NCBI GenBank assembly: GCA_030445745.1
Contig: JASUTE010000002.1
Location: 30,859 to 94,858 of the forward strand
Source: Candidatus Cloacimonadota bacterium
Lineage (GTDB): Bacteria; Cloacimonadota; Cloacimonadia; Cloacimonadales; TCS61
Length of the DNA: 64,000 nt
Direction of reading: 5' to 3'
The position numbers were made by a program, and so were the translations under genes. A model generated the notes under the pieces. It was not told the origin of the DNA. It searched no databases and worked only from the letters and a program-made list of their open reading frames with translations. Below are positions 37,570 to 52,291 of this stretch, one piece after another; position 1 is the stretch's first letter, and each line of letters opens with the position of its first letter.

Positions 37570-38928
37570 TCACTTTTTAATCTCTTTAATAAGCTTTTCT
37601 ATCTGAATTCTGAAATTTTTATCCAATTTAAATTTCTCTTCCACAGTTTTTTTGGCATGCAACACTGTGGTGTGGTCTTTTCTTTTGTAATACTGTGCTA
37701 TTTCCTTCAGGGAAAGCTGGGTAATGAGTAGGTTGGAAAGATACATCGCTACTTGGCGTGGGAAGGCGATATTTTTCTTTCTGGTTTTATCGAAGATCTG
37801 AGTAGTTGTTATATTATAGGCATCACAAACCTTCTCGGTAATAGTTTCCAGATTTACTTCCTTAATTTTGTCCGAGATCATATCTACCAGAATTTCGTGA
37901 GCAATATCCACAGTTATATCTTCTGTGTCCAAATTATTGTAGGAAGCATAAGCTAAAATTCTAATAAGAGAGCCTTCTAAAGCCCGAATATTGCTAGTGA
38001 TGTGTTCTGCGATGAAATCGATAACTTTGTCTTGCAGTTCTATATTTTCAGCTTCAGCTTTTTTACGTAAAATAGCTACCCTAGTTTCAAAAACAGGGCT
38101 TTTCAAATCTGCTAATAGTCCCCATTCGAATCTGGTTATCAATCTTTTTTCCAAATCAGGGATATCTTTAGGTGGCCGATCGCTAGTTAGCACAATTTGT
38201 TTCTTTTTTTCGTATAATGAGTTAAAAGTATGGAAAAATTCCTCCTGAGTTTGCTCTTTTTTAGAAAGAAAGTGGACATCGTCTATCAAAAGTAGGTCAA
38301 AATTACGATATTTATTTCTAAAGGAGGGCATTTTGTTATTTCGAATTGCATCTATCATCTCATTGGTAAATTCTTCTGTAGTAGTGTAAAAAATATTCCT
38401 AGTACCGTTTTCTTCTATCACAAAATTTCCTACAGCTTGCATCAGATGTGTTTTTCCCATACCAGACTCGCCGTATATAAAAAGTGGATTATAGATATTA
38501 CCAGGCGATTCAGCAACAGCTAACGAAGCAGAATGGGCAAATTTATTGTTGGCTCCTATTACAAACTCACTAAAGTTGTATTTAGGGTTAAGCTTTGTGT
38601 TGTGAGTAGTAGGAAAATTATCGTTCAATGGCTGAGAAAGAGGCTTTTTTTCCTCTTTCTTAGCTTGAGTTAAACCTGTAAAAACTGTATTAAACTTCTG
38701 TTTATAAATACTGTAATAAATTTCGGAAACAAGCTCACTGTAGTTATGATTCAAATACTCTGCTATAAATTTGGAAGGTACTTTTATCTGCAGTTCGTTG
38801 TCTTGAATGTTTATAAGCTGGGTTTCAGTAAACCAAGTATTAAATCCCTGCTCACTGATATTTTGTTGAAGTGTTTCTAGGACATTTCTCCATATTTCAT
38901 TGTAATCATGCATAGTAATAGACTCCAA
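37570..38928 (-). CDS. dnaA: Chromosomal replication initiator DnaA
   Basis: 452 aa with a TTG start. Walker A GESGMGKTHL, the AAA+ box LLIDDVHFL and a C-terminal DNA-binding helix (DHTTVLHA). Confidence 0.95.
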   Translation of the reverse strand: MESITMHDYNEIWRNVLETLQQNISEQGFNTWFTETQLINIQDNELQIKVPSKFIAEYLNHNYSELVSEIYYSIYKQKFNTVFTGLTQAKKEEKKPLSQPLNDNFPTTHNTKLNPKYNFSEFVIGANNKFAHSASLAVAESPGNIYNPLFIYGESGMGKTHLMQAVGNFVIEENGTRNIFYTTTEEFTNEMIDAIRNNKMPSFRNKYRNFDLLLIDDVHFLSKKEQTQEEFFHTFNSLYEKKKQIVLTSDRPPKDIPDLEKRLITRFEWGLLADLKSPVFETRVAILRKKAEAENIELQDKVIDFIAEHITSNIRALEGSLIRILAYASYNNLDTEDITVDIAHEILVDMISDKIKEVNLETITEKVCDAYNITTTQIFDKTRKKNIAFPRQVAMYLSNLLITQLSLKEIAQYYKRKDHTTVLHAKKTVEEKFKLDKNFRIQIEKLIKEIKK

Positions 38929-44616: not shown

Positions 44617-45025
44617 CAGACTTGCTTCGCAAAGTAATGTGAAGCGAGAATGACATAATCTGTTTCTATAGCTTACAAAAACATTGTCATTACGAGTTGT
44701 TCTTCTTGCAAAAACTTTTTCGAAGTAATCTATTTTTTAACATCAGGTTTAGTTACAGATTTATGCGCCGTAAGCAGATTGCTTCACCCATAAAGGGTTC
44801 GCAATGACGGTTTTTTTTGTCATTTCGACTGGAAGTAGCGAAGCTACTGGAATGGAGAAATCTCTCTTTCTCTTAAAACTCTTATGAGATCTCTCGACTT
44901 CACTTCGTTCCGCTCGAGGTGACAATTTAGTTCTCAAGAAACCCCTCTGCTCTGCTACGCAGAGCTCGCAGAGCTTCTCCCCTTAAAAAGGGGAGCAAAA
45001 AATGCTGTCATTCTGCCTGTCTAGC
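44617..45025 (+). repeat. Left long direct repeat (noncoding, hairpin-rich) bracketing the island
   Basis: Colinear with 51718-52167. It begins CAGACTTGCTTCGCAAAGTAATGTGAAGCGAGAATGACA. Internal modules include GTCATTACGAG, GCAATGACGG-T8-GTCATTTCGAC, GGAAGTAGCGAAGCTACTGG, CGAGGTGACAA and GTCATTCTGCC. Confidence 0.9.
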
Positions 45026-45450
45026 TGTTTTATCTCACCGTAGGCTTGGCTGAGGCGGAATGGGCTTGCAGCAAGGGGAAACTACAAATTGACCAGCCGT
45101 TTTAGCCGCCGTAGCTTCCATTCTCCGTAGCAGGATTACTTCGAAGGATAAATTGGCAAGTTAGAACAATCTAAATAATATACAATTCTGGAATGTTAAC
45201 TTAATTCTGTCCGTAAGGAGAGCTAATGCTAATTGAAATAAAGATTTACGATGGAATGATCTTCTATCAAGAGCAGAACAAAAGTAAATCTGGTTTGTTT
45301 GCGTCAATTTAAAAACCAAAAAAATAATTATTTTTATATTACCAAGAAATTAAATTTTTTTATTGACTAGAAACAGTTTTATTTGCAAAATATCTAAGTT
45401 AATATAAAGTGGTTTGAAAGATAGGTTATATCTTAACAGGGAGGGAAACT

Positions 45451-47089: not shown

Positions 47090-47178
47090 GTCATTACGAG
47101 TTGTTCTTCTTGGATTAACCTTCGTGTTTAGCAAGTATAATTTCCCTCATTTCACATGGGAGTAATCTATTTTTTAAC
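47090..47178 (+). repeat. Truncated copy of the island repeat family
   Basis: GTCATTACGAGTTGTTCTTCTTG ... AGTAATCTATTTTTTAAC matches the two ends of the module at about 44686-44741, with a different filler between them. Confidence 0.7.
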
Positions 47179-47403: not shown

Positions 47404-48095
47404 TTGGGCTAATACAAGGAGCAATCAGGAATGAAGAATTGGAAACCCATCAAGCTTGAAGAACTTTCTGGTGATACACAGAAAGTATACGACGTTCTCA
47501 ACACTGAGTCGGATCTGGCATGTGTGCTTATAGGGACAAGTTATCTTTCCGAATTGCTTGCGAATATGATCCAGGAAAGTTTCATAAAAAGCAACATATC
47601 TGGAAAACTTCTGGACCCTCGAGGTGGTTCGATTGGCCAATTCTCTACCAGGGCGGATCTTGCATACTGCTTAGGTCTTATCAAAAAAAGTATCTATCAA
47701 GATCTAAGCAAAATTGCTGTTATAAGAAACATGTTTGCACACAAACATGTTTCATTGGATTTCAATGATAATAATGTCAGAGACCGTTGCGGCGAATTGG
47801 AGGCGTGGCGTATTATGCAAGATAAAGATGCTGAAGAGATAGAAGAACCTTCACTTAAACAAATACACGATTTGACTCGGAATCAGTTCAATCTATCCGT
47901 AATCCTTATTGGTACACGGATTCATTTAGGTGTGTTAAGTAAAATTAACAGCCAAAATAAGAAATAAAAAGCCCAACAATGGCCTTGCACACCGAGCGGC
48001 CTTACGGCGCAGTTTTTTGAACTATAATTTTTATTGGGCTTTCTCTTTTTTTCGGCGGTTTTCGTTGCTCGCTGCCCGTCGGGTGACGGCCAGCG
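47404..48095 (+). mobile_element. Putative integron-type gene cassette carrying the HEPN gene
   Basis: It starts TTGGGC after a G (core GTTGGGC, 47403-47409). AAGGAG RBS at 47416-47421, ORF at 47431-47967. An attC-like palindrome begins with the complement GCCCAAC at 47971 and ends at the G of GTTATTT (48095). Confidence 0.5.
47431..47967 (+). CDS. HEPN-fold protein (MtlR/YggD-like) with Rx4H motif
   Basis: 178 aa, predicted all-helical. Motif IRNMFAH (R-x4-H) lies at the position typical of the HEPN active site, preceded by FSTRADLAYCLGLI. Confidence 0.55.
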   Translation: MKNWKPIKLEELSGDTQKVYDVLNTESDLACVLIGTSYLSELLANMIQESFIKSNISGKLLDPRGGSIGQFSTRADLAYCLGLIKKSIYQDLSKIAVIRNMFAHKHVSLDFNDNNVRDRCGELEAWRIMQDKDAEEIEEPSLKQIHDLTRNQFNLSVILIGTRIHLGVLSKINSQNKK

Positions 48096-48101: not shown

Positions 48102-48209
48102 TAAAAACTCGATAAGTAGAATCAAACTACTCTTTTGAGAATTATCTTTTTTTGTAATAATTTAAGACATTTCTCATGCTGCATTATTACATAGAGACTT
48201 GTGTGCTTA

Positions 48210-48620
48210 AAGCTAATTGCTTCACCCATAAAAGATCGCAAAGATAGTCACTCTGCTTGCCTAGTAGAAGCCTAGTGCGAAGGCGGAAAGTACTAGATAG
48301 GCAATAAAGCCCAGGACCTTTTTGATAAAACCGAGACCTCTCCACTTCGTTTCACTACGGTCGAGGTGACAAAGCTAATTTTTCCCTAGAGCCTCACAGT
48401 TTTTCTTTACTGTGGCAAGGTAAAACTACAACTTGTCTTGCCGTAGTGTAGCGAAGGCAGAAGTATCTAAATCTAAGCCATAGATCTCAGATGTTCTGTA
48501 GTATGTCTGCGTAAGAATTCCGCAACGTCCTGCGAGTAACCGAAGTTGGCGACCAACGGAAGCCAATTTGGGCGGAACGAAGCGTAGCCAGGTACTCGCT
48601 CTTAGGCACAGGCAAATCAT
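48210..48620 (+). repeat. Diverged colinear copy of the island repeat array
   Basis: It carries the same modules in the same order as the bracketing repeats, including ATTGCTTCACCCATAAAAGATCGCAAAGA and CGGTCGAGGTGACAAAG, plus GCCGTAGTGTAGCGAAGGCAG-type units. Sequence similarity is much lower than between the bracketing repeats. Confidence 0.6.
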
Positions 48621-48624
48621 TTTT

Positions 48625-48825
48625 CTAACCGCAACAACAATTACCTGAGTTAGTGCTCTTTTTATCCTGGCTTGTTATGTCTGGTTTTTTATCCACCTTA
48701 TCAGTATTCTCATTCTTATCATTATCATCGGGAACTTCTTCAAACTGGACGTTGCAACAGCCTCCTTTTTTTGGTTTTTCAGAAAACAATTTGCTTAAAA
48801 ATCCATTTTTCTTTTTTTCTGTCAT
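48625..48825 (-). CDS. Small Cys-cluster protein (GGCC ... GNCCCG C-terminus)
   Basis: 66 aa. A perfect SD (AAGGAGGAAG) lies 5 nt before the ATG, and the gene is 18 nt downstream of the permease stop. It has five Cys in two vicinal clusters and a charged low-complexity linker. Confidence 0.5.
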   Translation of the reverse strand: MTEKKKNGFLSKLFSEKPKKGGCCNVQFEEVPDDNDKNENTDKVDKKPDITSQDKKSTNSGNCCCG

Positions 48826-48843
48826 AACTTCCTCCTTTAGTAG

Positions 48844-49740
48844 TTACATAACAATATTGAAAACAAAGCCGCTTATAATTGCCGTTAAGAAAATAACAGT
48901 AACTATTGCAGCAACAAGTTTTATTTTAAAGATACCTGCCAACATACTCATTTCTGGTATAGCCATACCTGCTCCGCCAATAATTAAAGCGATGGCTGTG
49001 CCTATACCCATTCCTTTTCCCACAAGAGAAACTGCTATTGGAATTGCTGTTTCTGCTCTTATGTACAAAGGAATACCCACAACTGCAGCGACAGGAACAG
49101 CAAACATATTATCAGGACCAGCAATTCTTAACACAAAATCATCAGGCATATAGCCATATATACCCGCGCCTATGGCAACCCCAATCAGTAAATATAACAA
49201 AACTGGCTTTAGTGTTGACCAACCAGCAAATAATGATATTTTTACTTTATTTAAAAAAGGCAAATGCTGTCTTGTTTGTTCATTCTTTTTTACATTACCC
49301 TTTATTCGAATATTCTTTGTATATTTCTGAAATCCTGTTTTTTCAAGAATAAAACCCATAAATATGGATAGAATAAAAGCCAGTAAAAAGTAGAAGGCTG
49401 CAGATTTGACCCCCACAAGAACAGCCAGCATCCCAATAATAATAGGGTTTAATAATGGTGAAGAGATCAGGAAAGACATTGTAGCCCCAAACGGCACTTT
49501 TGCATTTAAAAATCCGACTGTCATAGGTATGGTGGAACAAGCACAAAATGGTGTCACGGCTCCGAGCATAGATCCAATAATATTTCCCAATAAACCTTTT
49601 CCGGAAAGAAATTTTTTCATCTTTTCTTCTGATATGTGCATCAATATAAATTCGATGATTGCGGTTATTCCAATAAACAAGACAACTAGCTCAATAGTTA
49701 TTTTGACAAAATACTGAAGCGTATCAATCAATGTGTTCAT
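48844..49740 (-). CDS. arsP: ArsP-like permease (PF03773-type predicted permease)
   Basis: 298 aa polytopic protein. The vicinal Cys pair in TPFCACSTIP matches ArsP-type organoarsenical efflux permeases. Confidence 0.65.
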   Translation of the reverse strand: MNTLIDTLQYFVKITIELVVLFIGITAIIEFILMHISEEKMKKFLSGKGLLGNIIGSMLGAVTPFCACSTIPMTVGFLNAKVPFGATMSFLISSPLLNPIIIGMLAVLVGVKSAAFYFLLAFILSIFMGFILEKTGFQKYTKNIRIKGNVKKNEQTRQHLPFLNKVKISLFAGWSTLKPVLLYLLIGVAIGAGIYGYMPDDFVLRIAGPDNMFAVPVAAVVGIPLYIRAETAIPIAVSLVGKGMGIGTAIALIIGGAGMAIPEMSMLAGIFKIKLVAAIVTVIFLTAIISGFVFNIVM

Positions 49741-49818
49741 GTATGCCTCCCTTTAAAATAATCATGCTTTTTATAAGGAAGACGATATGAAGCATAATAA
49801 AGACACATTTTATCAAAA

Positions 49819-50397
49819 TTATTCCAAATTTCTTAAGGGAGTACAGGTTTCTTTTACTATACAATGTAAAAAAGAGCCGTTTTTGTCATATTGGATATCA
49901 CAGCATTCAATAAATAAATCATAAAGCATTTTTCTGGCTCTTTGGATTCGCATTTTCGTCGCAGAAAGTGAAATATTTATGATTTTGGCTACCTCAGCCT
50001 GTTTTTTGTTTTCTATATCGCTAAGTAATAAGGGAATGCTATATTTATCTGGTAGTAATTTTATCATCGGAATTAAGTATTCTTTAGGGCTAAAGGTATC
50101 ATCTTTTTGCGAAAATTGTACTTCATCAATATATTCTATATAGGCTTCTATTTTATTTTTTCTTCCCCTGTAATAATCTATTAATGTGTTTCGTGTAATT
50201 TGGTATAACCAAGCTCTTAAGTTTTTTACAGGTACACTCTTTTGATGAGCTGAAATTACTTTCAGCATAACATCCTGAACTATATCTTCGGCCAAATGAA
50301 TATCTCCGGTTTTTCCGATCAGATAATTTTTTAATTGCTGATAAAAGTCTGAGACTATCATATCCAAATCACAACAATCAGTTTTTTCTTTATTCAT
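49819..50397 (-). CDS. ECF-type sigma-70 factor (SigZ-like) with Cys-rich C-terminal extension
   Basis: 192 aa. Sigma-2 (AEDIVQDVMLKV..WLYQITRN), sigma-4 HTH (QAEVAKIINISLSATKMRIQRARKML) and the tail ECCDIQYDKNGSFLHCIVKETC. Confidence 0.8.
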   Translation of the reverse strand: MNKEKTDCCDLDMIVSDFYQQLKNYLIGKTGDIHLAEDIVQDVMLKVISAHQKSVPVKNLRAWLYQITRNTLIDYYRGRKNKIEAYIEYIDEVQFSQKDDTFSPKEYLIPMIKLLPDKYSIPLLLSDIENKKQAEVAKIINISLSATKMRIQRARKMLYDLFIECCDIQYDKNGSFLHCIVKETCTPLRNLE

Positions 50398-50441
50398 CTC
50401 AAAAACCTACTATATGCTTCGATAATGTATTCATCGCTTGC

Positions 50442-50505
50442 GCCTAACGTGTGACGGTATGAAATCGTTGAGGTAAATGGGCTGCGTTCTTGTCCACCGT
50501 TGACG
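50442..50505 (-). other. attC-like site (64 bp) between arsM and the sigma gene
   Basis: The minus strand reads CGTCAAC-GG-TGGAC....GTCAC-AC-GTTAGGC. The 3' box GTTAGGC fits GTTRRRY exactly. AACG/CGTT, TG/CA and GAC/GTC pair with single unpaired bases. The central 35 nt are poorly paired. Confidence 0.35.
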
Positions 50506-50583
50506 AATTTGAAGCGAGGTAGGATGCTGAATGACCCACTTTTCCCCCAATGTTTTATAACACAGTGCGTAGTGATTTTATAC

Positions 50584-51342
50584 TCATTTTTTTATGGCTT
50601 CTAATTTAAGACTTTCTAATTTCAATCCGTTATACTGTCTTTCGCTTATCTCCTTATCTTCGGAGATAACATTCACCTCAAATCCAACCCTTTTAATCAT
50701 TTCTAAATATTCATCTCGTAAAATAGCTCCTCCAACACAACCTGCAATTAAATTAGAATCATTTCTTTGTTCAATTGTTAGCTCTTCTAATAAAACAATA
50801 TCAGAAATATATGCTCTTCCATATGTTTTTAGTACTCTATAAGCTTCCTTAAAAACGTTTTCCTTATTGGGTACTAAATTTATCACACAATTACTAATAA
50901 TCTTGTCAATCGAGCAGTCTGCCAGTGGTAATTGTTCAATATCACCGAGTTTAAATTCAACATTTTCATAATTATACTTTTTCGCATTTTCCCTCGCCTT
51001 AGATATCATTTCTTCTGTAATATCAATACCAATTACTTTTCCACTCATCCCAACCCGTTGAGCAGCAATGAATGTATCAAATCCAGCACCACTGCCTAAA
51101 TCCAGCACTACATCACCCTCATTGATTTTGACGTATGCCAAAGGATTTCCGCACCCAAGTCCAAGGTTAGATTCTGGAACCATATTTAATTCTCCAAATG
51201 AGTAACCAATACTTTTTGAGATATCCTCATTCGATAATAATGAACCACAGCAAGAAGAATCTGAACAACAACTTGAACTTCCACTCATAGCGATTGAACC
51301 ATATTTTTCTTGTATTATTCTTGTCACCTTTTTTTTATCCAT
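50584..51342 (-). CDS. arsM: Arsenite S-adenosylmethionine methyltransferase
   Basis: 252 aa. N-terminal Cys clusters SSSCCSDSSCCG, SAM motif VLDLGSGAGFD, and conserved Cys contexts SNCVINL and AGCVGGA. Confidence 0.8.
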   Translation of the reverse strand: MDKKKVTRIIQEKYGSIAMSGSSSCCSDSSCCGSLLSNEDISKSIGYSFGELNMVPESNLGLGCGNPLAYVKINEGDVVLDLGSGAGFDTFIAAQRVGMSGKVIGIDITEEMISKARENAKKYNYENVEFKLGDIEQLPLADCSIDKIISNCVINLVPNKENVFKEAYRVLKTYGRAYISDIVLLEELTIEQRNDSNLIAGCVGGAILRDEYLEMIKRVGFEVNVISEDKEISERQYNGLKLESLKLEAIKK

Positions 51343-51377
51343 TTTTAATCCTTTCGATTCTTTAATTTGAGTTCCCT

Positions 51378-51455
51378 CTAAAAACTCGATTTTAATTCAA
51401 TTATTTCTCTGAATAAGTTTACTAATTCTCCGGTTCTTTTTCTTCTCCTTGGCAT
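51378..51455 (-). CDS. Possible 25-aa leader or mini-ORF upstream of arsM
   Basis: My own translation: MPRRRKRTGELVNLFREIIELKSSF. SD AGGGGGAAAAG lies 4 nt before the ATG. Too short for the ORF track. Confidence 0.2.
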   Translation of the reverse strand: MPRRRKRTGELVNLFREIIELKSSF

Positions 51456-51717: not shown

Positions 51718-52167
51718 CAGACTTGCTTTGCAAAGTAATGTGAAGCGAGAATGACAAAAGCTGTTTCTATAGCTTACAAAAACATTGTCATTACGAGTTG
51801 TTCTTCTTGCAAAAACTTTTTCGAAGTAATCTGTTTTTCACATCAGGTTTAGTTACAGATTTATGCGCTGTAAGCGCATTGCTTCACCCATAAAGGGTTC
51901 GCAATGACGGTTTTTTTTTGTCATTTCGACTGGAAGTAGCGAAGCTACTGGAATGGAGAAATCTCTTTTTCTCTTAAAACTCTTATGAGATCTCTCGACT
52001 TCACTTCGTTCCGCTCGAGATGACAATTCAGTTCTCAAGAACCCCCTCTGCTCTGCTACGCTTGCCTTATGGAATGCAGCTATGCTGCCGGCTTTGCCGA
52101 TTCCACTAGGGCAGAGCTTTTCCCCTTAAAATGGGAGCCAAAAATGCGGTCATTCTGCCTGCCTAGC
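51718..52167 (+). repeat. Right long direct repeat bracketing the island
   Basis: Colinear with 44617-45025. It has a 1-nt deletion near 51835, T9 versus T8 at about 51910, and an extra insert of about 50 bp (52062-52110). Confidence 0.9.
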
Positions 52168-52291
52168 CGTAGCCTTTGGCGAAGGCTGGAGGCAAACCCC
52201 GAACTCGTTCGACGAAGAATCTAATTCTGAGACACAAAGCCCAGATGTTTCGTCTAAAATTGCCAAGATGAATTCCTCAATATGACGGGCT

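What the first reader, a model, noticed from the sequence alone, without database searches (positions are those of the whole stretch)
48625..51455. Arsenic methylation and efflux module apparently controlled by a Cys-tailed ECF sigma factor instead of ArsR
Seen, all on the minus strand:
- arsM, with N-terminal CC clusters, the SAM motif and the NCV and GCVGG cysteines.
- An ECF/SigZ-like sigma factor whose C-terminus carries four Cys (ECCDIQYDKNGSFLHCIVKETC).
- An ArsP-like permease with TPFCACS.
- A 66-aa CC/CCC peptide.

I find no ArsR/SmtB-type repressor, arsB/acr3, arsC or anti-sigma gene in or next to the module.

Established:
- ArsM produces methylarsenite.
- ArsP exports methylarsenite.
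- ars operons are typically ArsR-regulated.
- Some ECF sigma factors (CorE-type) sense metals directly through a Cys-rich C-terminal extension.

Inference: the sigma factor may bind As(III) or MAs(III) through its Cys tail and act as a one-component metalloid-responsive sigma. I do not know of an experimentally described case of this regulatory logic.
Basis: partly seen in the sequence, partly recalled or inferred. Interest (0 to 1): 0.6.

Follow-up and report, generated by a model that had tools for sequence, protein, structure and literature searches.

The report
Arsenic-linked cysteine-rich ECF sigma factor
A small sigma factor with six conserved cysteines sits between an arsenic-methylating enzyme and an organoarsenical export pump. 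Its relatives in other phyla are almost always embedded in arsenic-resistance gene clusters behind a family-specific promoter, so it probably belongs to an undescribed class of arsenic-dedicated transcription activators.

Summary
All four minus-strand genes exist as described: arsM, a SigZ-like ECF sigma factor, an ArsP_1 permease and a 66-aa CC peptide. No ArsR, Acr3 or LMWP-type ArsC was detected anywhere in the 64-kb window.

In 80 genome loci the sigma gene is followed on the same strand by ArsP in 58. Other loci have ArsD-ArsA downstream, or ArsI-ArsN1 upstream. ArsR-ArsC-Acr3 operons often lie next door. The one full-context locus with no ars gene has lost five of the six cysteines.

A bipartite promoter, TGTGTCTTTT-N11/12-CG(A/T)CTTC, occurs about once per locus, about 30 nt upstream of the first ars gene after sigma. 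It is absent from 493 kb of control ECF loci. In the window it occurs once, 34 nt upstream of arsP. It is not found upstream of arsM or sigma.

The arsM link is confined to this Cloacimonadota species.

Verdict: the sigma factor most likely activates arsP and the CC peptide gene. Arsenical sensing through its cysteines is plausible but inferred. Control of arsM and replacement of ArsR are not supported as general features. I found no published arsenic-responsive sigma factor.

The parts
50584..51342 (-). arsM, As(III) S-adenosylmethionine methyltransferase (252 aa, short form)
   Evidence: NF008823 at 314.8 bits, above the cut-off of 263. Aligns to PDB arsenite methyltransferases 5evj and 4fr0 with the conserved Cys motifs. 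Adjacent to sigma only in this species. No family promoter upstream.
49819..50397 (-). SigZ-like (ECF238-type) ECF sigma factor, 192 aa, with six conserved Cys
   Evidence: PF04542 and PF08281. SigZ models score 132-134 bits, below their cut-offs. The AF2 model has sigma2, a disordered linker, sigma4 and a C-terminal beta-hairpin. PDB fold matches are ECF sigma factors only.
50371..50376 (-). codons for the N-terminal Cys8-Cys9 pair
   Evidence: C8 in 99 of 99 and C9 in 98 of 99 homologues. Presence of an N-terminal Cys co-occurs with Cys179 in the wider family: odds ratio 6.4, p = 1.5e-4, not corrected for phylogeny.
49843..49905 (-). codons for the C-terminal Cys cluster CC-X12-C-X5-C (Cys165, 166, 179, 185)
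   Evidence: Each of the four is Cys in 98 of 99 homologues. Predicted to lie on a beta-hairpin after the last sigma4 helix.
49775..49811 (-). predicted sigma-dependent promoter of arsP: -35 TGTGTC at 49802-49807, -10 CGTCTT at 49779-49784
   Evidence: PWM score 24.6. It is the only site above 8 bits in the 64-kb window on either strand. Its 3' end is 34 nt from the arsP ATG, similar to the roughly 30 nt seen in the family. The exact core pattern is expected 0.03 times per window.
48844..49740 (-). ArsP_1-family permease (298 aa), probable trivalent organoarsenical exporter
   Evidence: PF03773 at 184.9 bits. Has TPFCACS, matching the 'tPF' + CxC motif of ArsP cluster 2. A homologue lies directly downstream of the sigma gene in 58 of 80 loci.
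48625..48825 (-). 66-aa hydrophilic Cys-pair peptide, co-transcribed with arsP
   Evidence: Strong RBS 18 nt after the arsP stop. Homologues with a conserved CC(N/D)(I/V)Q(F/I)EE motif follow ArsP in 8 of the 80 genome loci and in L089. No Pfam or NCBIfam family.
48425..48447 (-). terminator-like hairpin after the peptide gene
   Evidence: Consensus scan. No terminator-like site lies between arsM, sigma and arsP.
51718..52170 (.). about 450-nt repeat upstream of arsM (second copy at 44617-45028, fragment at 48187-48372)
   Evidence: 96% and 89% identity between the copies. Metagenome contigs carrying this module break near here.

Best explanation
The sigma factor belongs to a phylum-spanning clade of SigZ-like ECF sigma factors that have no anti-sigma partner and are dedicated to arsenic-resistance cassettes.

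Proposed mechanism:
1. The sigma gene is transcribed from a promoter it does not itself recognise. In this window it probably rides on the arsM transcript.
2. The protein becomes transcriptionally competent when a trivalent arsenical engages its conserved cysteines (N-terminal CC, C-terminal CC-X12-C-X5-C). The ligand would be MAs(III) made by ArsM, or As(III).
3. It then directs RNA polymerase to the family promoter TGTGTCTTTA-N12-TCGTCTTCC, 34 nt upstream of arsP. This switches on the exporter and the Cys-pair peptide.

Shown here:
- the gene identities;
- the conservation of the cysteines;
- the conserved sigma-to-ars-cassette gene order;
- the family-specific promoter and its single occurrence in the window.

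Inferred:
- that this sigma factor reads that promoter;
- that arsenicals are the signal;
- that the cysteines are the sensor;
- that arsM and sigma are co-transcribed.

arsM appears to be a lineage-specific addition, not part of the sigma regulon.
For: Context:
- ArsP lies directly downstream on the same strand in 58 of 80 genome loci.
- Other cassettes behind the same motif are Trx-like/ArsP/MerT-like/ArsO, and ArsD-ArsA with Pfam ArsD at 73-80 bits and ArsA at 334 bits.
- A Cytophagales clade has arsI-arsN1-sigma.
- ArsO scores 469.9 bits (cut-off 425), Acr3 448 bits and ArsI 124.7 bits (cut-off 116).
- 30 of 32 clusters at 70% identity have an ars-type neighbour, and 15 of 32 have a classic ars gene.
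- In 69 unrelated ECF loci (493 kb) there is no ArsP, Trx-like or ArsO gene.

Promoter:
- There are 42 distinct instances.
- 62 of 66 main-clade loci have it within 300 nt downstream of sigma, and 0 of 60 have it within 400 nt upstream.
- Instances outside the training set: L066 on the opposite strand ahead of a divergent Trx-ArsP pair, second sites in L014, L016 and L021, the variant TGCGTCTTTT-N12-CCGTCAT ahead of arsI, and 9 hits in 10 metagenome family loci against 0 in controls.
- The window has one site, score 24.6, upstream of arsP.

Cysteines:
- Each of the six is Cys in at least 98 of 99 homologues.
- L002, the only full-context locus without ars genes, has the pattern CYIPSV at the six positions.

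Precedent:
- CorE and CorE2 are activated by metals through a C-terminal Cys-rich domain. corE2 itself is not metal-induced.
- From my own knowledge: S3 sites built from a vicinal CC pair plus one more Cys bind As(III) in AfArsR, CgArsR and ArsD. A CC pair gives MAs(III) selectivity in SpArsR.
Against: - No experiment exists, so ligand and binding are inferred from context.
- CC at positions 165/166 (119 of 149) and a Cys near position 185 (133 of 149) are general traits of the wider SigZ-like family. The tail alone therefore does not specify arsenic.
- In many loci the sigma gene lies just downstream of an ArsR-controlled arsC-acr3 operon in the same orientation. Its level could then be set by ArsR, with no sensing by the sigma factor needed.
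- The AF2 model does not fix the relative position of the N-terminal CC and the tail (pTM 0.42, residues 1-7 below pLDDT 50).
- PF03773 also includes Cu/Zn exporters (SO_0444) and SaoE. The window permease hits those at about 86 bits, and hits the NCBIfam arsenic_eff model at only 34 bits against a cut-off of 100.
- MerT-like genes are frequent neighbours.
- The PWM was trained on the sites it then finds. The support for it rests on its specificity and on the instances outside the training set.
Confidence: 0.55

Rival explanations
1. Transcriptional cascade without sensing. The sigma factor is a constitutively active amplifier whose amount is set by whatever promoter drives it. That would be an ArsR-repressed operon in many Bacteroidota, and the arsM promoter here. 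The cysteines would bind a structural Zn or stabilise the fold.
For: - The gene order ArsR>...Acr3>(MPE>)Sigma>, all on one strand, occurs in Flagellimonas, Algoriphagus, Aequorivita, Chryseobacterium and others.
- There is no terminator-like site between arsM and sigma in the window.
- The CC...C tail is widespread in SigZ-like proteins.
Against: - Most loci, including the window, have no ArsR or other shared upstream gene.
- Six cysteines conserved at 98-99%, including a surface-exposed N-terminal CC in a low-confidence segment, are more than a structural Zn site needs.
- In CorE2 the equivalent domain is the sensor.
- The locus that lost the cysteines also lost the ars link.
Confidence: 0.2
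2. Generic thiol-stress or soft-metal sensor. The cysteines respond to oxidation, electrophiles or Cd/Zn/Cu/Hg, as in CorE and CorE2. The PF03773 permease would export a metal or another thiophilic compound, and the arsenic genes would be co-located resistance cargo.
For: - CorE responds to Cu and CorE2 to Cd/Zn.
- The permease has weak similarity to SO_0444 Cu/Zn and SaoE exporters.
- MerT/MerC-like membrane proteins appear in 16 of 32 clusters.
Against: - Every identifiable cassette behind the promoter is arsenic-specific: ArsD-ArsA, ArsI, ArsN1, ArsO, ArsP.
- No cop, czc or merA family emerged among the conserved neighbour clusters.
- The defining CorE-like linker CxC is absent.
Confidence: 0.13
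3. Both arsM and arsP are under this sigma factor, which has replaced ArsR as the sole regulator of a methylation-plus-efflux module.
For: - All four genes are co-oriented and closely spaced, and no ArsR was detected in 64 kb.
- An exact TGTGTC-N16-CGTC lies at 52211-52236(-), about 870 nt upstream of arsM. The pattern is expected 0.03 times per window.
Against: - That second site lacks the T-tract and the extended -10, and scores negative with the family PWM.
- It is separated from arsM by a 450-nt repeat.
- arsM is not linked to the sigma factor in any other lineage.
- In one population arsM is frameshifted while sigma is intact.
Confidence: 0.12

Closest known systems
CorE / CorE2 of Myxococcus xanthus (CorE-like, former ECF44)
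   Same: An ECF sigma factor with no anti-sigma partner and a short C-terminal Cys-rich extension. The sigma gene is not (fully) autoregulated, and the targets are adjacent detoxification genes.
   Different: - No CxC in the sigma2-sigma4 linker; an N-terminal CC instead.
- Four tail Cys in 21 residues, against six in 28-38.
- The neighbours are arsenic genes, not Cu/Cd/Zn genes.
- The proposed signal is a metalloid or organoarsenical.
- No experimental data.
Bacillus subtilis SigZ and group ECF238 (Casas-Pastor et al. 2021, PMC7826278)
   Same: SigZ is the best named sequence match. Both have a roughly 20-aa Cys-containing C-terminal extension and no anti-sigma factor.
   Different: - It scores below both SigZ equivalog cut-offs.
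- SigZ is reported to have two C-terminal Cys and no known function. This clade has six conserved Cys and a defined genomic context.
ArsR/SmtB arsenic repressors (R773 ArsR, AfArsR, CgArsR; MAs(III)-selective SpArsR)
   Same: They control the same kinds of genes. They have convergently evolved Cys sites built on vicinal or near-vicinal cysteines. SpArsR pairs with arsP (own knowledge).
   Different: ArsR is a winged-helix repressor released by arsenic. The protein here is an RNA polymerase subunit that would act positively from its own promoter class. The two co-exist in many loci.
ArsM-ArsP pairing in anaerobic arsenic methylators
   Same: A methylarsenite producer sits next to a methylarsenite exporter. 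In Paraclostridium bifermentans EML the activation of arsP is stated to be of unknown mechanism.
   Different: Here a dedicated sigma gene lies between the two genes, and a matching promoter precedes arsP.
OrbS of Burkholderia cenocepacia (PMC9023288, title and abstract only)
   Same: An ECF sigma factor described as carrying an on-board metal sensor.
   Different: It is an iron-starvation sigma factor of a different ECF group. I did not examine it further.

Membership tests
ArsM (As(III) SAM methyltransferase) | Scores above the curated family threshold | tested here: met
   NF008823 at 314.8 bits against a cut-off of 263.
ArsM (As(III) SAM methyltransferase) | Conserved catalytic cysteines (CmArsM Cys72, Cys174 and Cys224 equivalents, plus an N-terminal Cys) and the SAM motif | tested here: met
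   GCGNP, ISNCVINL and GCVGGA align with solved ArsM structures. VLDLGSGAGFD and the N-terminal CC clusters are in the translation. The role of the cysteines is from PMC6138428.
ArsM (As(III) SAM methyltransferase) | Methylates As(III) | not testable with these tools
   Needs an enzyme assay.
ArsP (organoarsenical efflux permease, PF03773) | Pfam ArsP_1 above the gathering score | tested here: met
   184.9 bits against 32.3.
ArsP (organoarsenical efflux permease, PF03773) | Transmembrane C(S/T)C motif, preceded by tPF in cluster 2 | tested here: inconclusive
   The window has TPFCACS. Both Cys and the tPF are present, but the middle residue is Ala rather than Ser or Thr. Flavobacterial homologues have TPFCSCS.
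ArsP (organoarsenical efflux permease, PF03773) | NCBIfam arsenic efflux subfamily threshold | tested here: not met
   NF037962 at 34.1 bits against a cut-off of 100. SO_0444 and SaoE models score about 86 bits, also below their cut-offs.
ArsP (organoarsenical efflux permease, PF03773) | Exports MAs(III) or Rox(III) | not testable with these tools
   Needs a transport or resistance assay.
SigZ (B. subtilis equivalog) | Scores above the equivalog cut-off | tested here: not met
   TIGR02959 at 132.2 bits against 168.65. NF007215 at 133.8 bits against 212.
CorE-like sigma factors (ECF44) | C-terminal Cys-rich domain after sigma4 | tested here: met
   CC-X12-C-X5-C, each Cys conserved in 98 of 99 homologues.
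CorE-like sigma factors (ECF44) | CxC motif in the sigma2-sigma4 linker | tested here: not met
   There is no Cys in the window linker. Only 5 of 81 family members have any linker Cys, and none has CxC.
CorE-like sigma factors (ECF44) | No cognate anti-sigma factor | tested here: met
   No conserved anti-sigma-like neighbour appears among the clustered ORF families of 80 loci. The window neighbours are arsM and arsP. This is absence of evidence only.
CorE-like sigma factors (ECF44) | Activity switched by direct metal binding | not testable with these tools
   Needs biochemistry.
ECF238 (Casas-Pastor classification) | Short (about 20 aa) Cys-rich C-terminal extension, and relationship to SigZ/CorE2 | tested here: met
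   The tail is present and SigZ is the best named match.
ECF238 (Casas-Pastor classification) | Assignment by the ECF Hub group or subgroup HMMs | not testable with these tools
   The models and the paper's supplementary text are not held.
Canonical ArsR-regulated ars operon | ArsR/SmtB repressor encoded in or next to the operon | tested here: not met
   The ArsR HMM has no hit in 64 kb at E <= 1. No HTH_5 or HTH_20 in the scanned ORFs.

The most novel reading that the evidence does not exclude
This clade is a previously unrecognised class of one-component arsenical-sensing sigma factors, found in Bacteroidota, Spirochaetota and Cloacimonadota.

CC-based thiolate sites on the sigma factor itself would bind As(III) or MAs(III) and license transcription from a dedicated promoter class. 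That promoter class drives organoarsenical and arsenite detoxification cassettes: ArsP, ArsE-like Trx, ArsO, ArsI, ArsN1 and ArsD-ArsA. This would work in parallel with ArsR.

In this Cloacimonadota genome it would close a product-sensing loop: ArsM makes MAs(III), the sigma factor senses it, and ArsP exports it.
Probability: 0.4. Interest if true: 0.8.

Novelty: new variant of a known kind. Interest (0 to 1): 0.66.

Why it matters
The arsenic regulators I know of are mostly ArsR/SmtB repressors, plus a few MarR-type cases. Reviews of metal-responsive ECF sigma factors list iron, nickel/cobalt, copper, cadmium and zinc, but no metalloid.

A sigma factor that carries its own arsenical sensor would be:
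- a new positive-control logic for ars genes;
- a possible answer to how arsP is switched on in anaerobic methylators, which is stated as unknown;
- the first functional assignment for a large branch of the SigZ/ECF238 group;
- a ready-made orthogonal sigma-promoter pair for arsenic or organoarsenical biosensors.

The predicted promoter and the availability of cultured family members make this directly testable.

Tried and rejected
- Rfam scan of 44-53 kb at E <= 1: nothing.
- Fold of the 186-nt arsM-sigma spacer: no better than shuffles, z = 0.61.
- The sigma-70 and terminator consensus scan was uninformative for promoters: 17 found against 12.4 expected.
- The second exact core match at 52211-52236 was rejected as a family promoter by PWM.
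- Methyltransferases near the sigma gene in L002, L004, L089, L090 and L092 were tested as possible ArsM. They share only the generic SAM domain, at 60 bits or less.
- The metagenome scan with the single protein returned only about 10 family members and 69 unrelated ECF loci. The latter were reused as a negative control.
- The AF2 model gave secondary structure but no coordinates, so Cys-Cys distances could not be measured.
- The PDB fold search found only generic ECF sigma factors.
- The ECF238 supplementary text and the ArsP paper (PMC4681449) are not held.
- Literature searches for SigZ or ECF sigma factors together with arsenic found no relevant paper.
- The 104-aa ORF upstream of sigma in L092 was checked as a possible anti-sigma factor. 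It has no such features.


Full report
OBSERVATION

The window comes from a Candidatus Cloacimonadota bacterium. The sigma protein is 100% identical to an NCBI/JGI entry of that name. On the minus strand lie four genes:
- arsM, 50584-51342;
- a 192-aa ECF sigma factor, 49819-50397;
- an ArsP_1 permease, 48844-49740;
- a 66-aa Cys-pair peptide, 48625-48825.

arsM passes the NCBIfam arsenite-methyltransferase threshold, 314.8 against 263 bits. It aligns with solved ArsM structures through GCGNP, ISNCVINL and GCVGGA. The sigma factor has Sigma70_r2 and r4_2, and SigZ is its best named match, though below cut-off. The permease scores 184.9 bits on PF03773 and carries TPFCACS. That is the 'tPF'-CxC signature of ArsP cluster 2, with Ala in place of Ser or Thr.

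HMMs for ArsR, Acr3, LMWP-ArsC, ArsI, ArsO and others find nothing in the 64-kb window. Pfam on the small ORFs shows no ArsR-type HTH.

THE SIGMA FAMILY

There are 234 homologues with E <= 1e-5. In an alignment of 99 of them, Cys8 is invariant and Cys9, 165, 166, 179 and 185 are each present in 98 of 99.

The AF2 model (pLDDT 76, pTM 0.42) shows sigma2 (helices 11-80), a disordered linker (82-102), sigma4 (104-165) and a C-terminal beta-hairpin carrying the tail cysteines. PDB fold matches are ordinary ECF sigma factors.

Against 1.84 billion cluster representatives, 15 clusters match at E <= 1e-30 and 1354 at E <= 1e-10. Among the best 149 representatives, CC at positions 165/166 (119) and a Cys near 185 (133) are common. 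The tail is therefore a trait of the wider SigZ-like group. The N-terminal Cys and Cys179 mark a sub-clade and co-occur: odds ratio 6.4, p = 1.5e-4, not corrected for phylogeny.

The literature places SigZ and CorE2 together in ECF238, defined by a roughly 20-aa Cys-rich C-terminal extension. CorE-like factors in the strict sense also need a linker CxC. That motif is absent here.

NEIGHBOURHOOD SURVEY

I analysed 80 genome loci from GTDB species representatives.
- ArsP follows the sigma gene on the same strand in 58 of 80.
- Recurrent architectures:
  - Sigma>Trx-like(ArsE family)>ArsP>MerT-like>ArsO in Flavobacteriia;
  - ArsR>DUF6428>ArsC>Acr3>(phosphoesterase)>Sigma>Trx>ArsP in Flagellimonas and Algoriphagus;
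  - Sigma>ArsD>ArsA>MerT-like in Chryseobacterium, Dysgonomonas and Chitinophaga;
  - ArsI>ArsN1>Sigma in Pontibacter and other Cytophagales;
  - Sigma>ArsP>CC-peptide in anaerobes (Spirochaetota, Bacteroidales, the window).
- After single-linkage clustering of the sigma proteins at 70% identity there are 32 clusters. Of these, 23 have ArsP, 15 have at least one classic ars gene, and 30 have some ars-type neighbour.
- There are two exceptions. L063 is a contig cut about 450 nt after the sigma gene. L002 is a Spirochaetota paralogue, 71% identical, that has lost five of the six cysteines.
- As a control, 69 unrelated ECF sigma loci (493 kb) contain no ArsP, Trx-like or ArsO gene. Only 2 have Acr3 and 3 have an ArsR-like gene.

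PROMOTER

Downstream of the sigma stop codon there are 42 distinct instances of aa-TGTGTCTTTT-N11/12-(c/t)(a/c)G(A/T)CT(T/A)C-(a/g)TA. A PWM built from them has these properties:
- It hits about once per 16-kb locus, with its 3' end about 30 nt from the next start codon.
- It is present within 300 nt downstream of sigma in 62 of 66 main-clade loci, and never within 400 nt upstream in 60 loci.
- It gives no hit above 16 bits in the 493-kb control set, against 9 hits in 10 independent metagenome family loci.
- Instances outside the training set: the minus-strand site ahead of a divergently oriented Trx-ArsP pair in L066, second sites in L014, L016 and L021, and the related TGCGTCTTTT-N12-CCGTCAT ahead of arsI in the distant Cytophagales clade.

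In the window the PWM gives exactly one site above 8 bits on either strand. It is 49775-49811(-), score 24.6, 34 nt upstream of the arsP ATG. Neither the arsM upstream region nor the arsM-sigma spacer has a positive score.

An exact TGTGTC-N16-CGTC at 52211-52236(-) is statistically unexpected. It lacks the rest of the motif and is separated from arsM by a 450-nt repeat.

arsM

All contigs that carry arsM next to this sigma factor encode the identical sigma protein, so they come from the same species. In every other lineage the nearby methyltransferases are unrelated to ArsM. One population has a frameshifted arsM with an intact sigma gene. No terminator-like site separates arsM, sigma and arsP, so read-through from an arsM promoter into sigma is plausible but not shown.

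INTERPRETATION

The best-supported reading is that this sigma factor is an arsenic-cassette-dedicated ECF factor. It is not autoregulated, it has no anti-sigma partner, and it activates arsP and the Cys-pair peptide gene from a private promoter. By analogy with CorE and CorE2 its cysteines would be the sensor.

The cassettes it precedes are arsenic-specific and lean toward organoarsenicals (ArsP, ArsI, ArsN1, ArsO). In 9 of 32 clusters an ArsR is encoded within 8 kb of the sigma gene, in most of them with acr3. This suggests a division of labour, with a trivalent arsenical, possibly MAs(III), as the sigma factor's signal.

CC-plus-Cys triads are the usual As(III) sites of AfArsR, CgArsR and ArsD, and a CC pair gives MAs(III) selectivity in SpArsR. 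That statement rests on my own knowledge and was not tested here.

Rivals:
- an ArsR-driven cascade in which the sigma factor senses nothing;
- generic thiol or soft-metal sensing;

NOVELTY

Four literature searches and the two ECF reviews gave no arsenic- or metalloid-responsive sigma factor. The ECF238 supplementary text, which may describe neighbourhoods, was not available. I rate this a new variant of a known kind: a CorE-like on-board sensor with a different cysteine architecture, a metalloid context and a defined promoter. Interest is moderate to high.

Noticed in passing
window 44617-45028 and 51718-52170; fragments at 47090-47112, 48187-48372: About 450-nt direct repeats (96% and 89% identity) bracket a 7.1-kb segment. 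A fragment plus a full copy bracket the four-gene module. Most metagenome contigs with the identical sigma factor are 2-5 kb, and the contigs shown from this size class hold little beyond this module, as if assemblies break at these repeats. No Rfam match. The nature of the repeat (MITE-like element or recombination scar) is unknown.
   Followed up: partly
window 37570-38928 (-), and the GC-skew minimum near 36-38 kb: dnaA (Bac_DnaA, 234 bits) coincides with the cumulative GC-skew minimum. The window appears to span the chromosomal replication origin, about 10 kb from the arsenic module.
   Followed up: no
L088 242-1050: In one metagenome (JGI 3300036941) arsM is split into two ORFs while the adjacent sigma gene is intact. 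This may be a frameshifted arsM allele in a natural population, or an assembly error.
   Followed up: no
window 52211-52236 (-): An exact TGTGTC-N16-CGTC lies between nadD and the repeat, about 870 nt upstream of arsM. The pattern is expected 0.03 times per window, yet the site scores negative with the family PWM. It may be the remnant of a promoter displaced by the repeat insertion, or chance.
   Followed up: partly
window 51378-51455 (-): A 25-codon ORF (MPRRRKRTGELVNLFREIIELKSSF) lies just upstream of arsM. No evidence that it is a gene.
   Followed up: no
L051-L060 9916-10455 (Flagellimonas): A second, more distant ECF sigma gene (E = 2e-27 to the window sigma) directly follows ArsP in the same operon-like array.
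   Followed up: no
L033 8595-10768; L045 8706-10820; L050 8652-10759: A divergent ArsD with the motif F-E-(I/L/M)-GGCCSTSL, paired with ArsA, sits behind the sigma-family promoter. In L045 a canonical ArsD-ArsA pair lies just upstream of the sigma gene.
   Followed up: partly
many loci, e.g. L029 2075-2434, L090 836-1276, L014 9633-10127: A MerT/MerC-like membrane protein with TCCG(L/I)P in its first helix, and often further CC pairs, recurs in arsenic cassettes (16 of 32 clusters). It scores below the MerT and MerC thresholds. Its role in arsenical handling is unknown.
   Followed up: no
Trx-like genes between sigma and ArsP, e.g. L005 7300-7546, L066 9768-10007: The MTH895/ArsE-family thioredoxin-like proteins in these cassettes carry a vicinal SCCG where a CxxC motif would be expected. 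This suggests arsenical binding rather than ordinary redox chemistry.
   Followed up: no
window 47431-47967 (+): An MtlR/MltR-like protein (37.5 bits) is the only regulator-like ORF within the repeat-bounded segment. It is on the opposite strand, with no sign of a link to the arsenic module.
   Followed up: no
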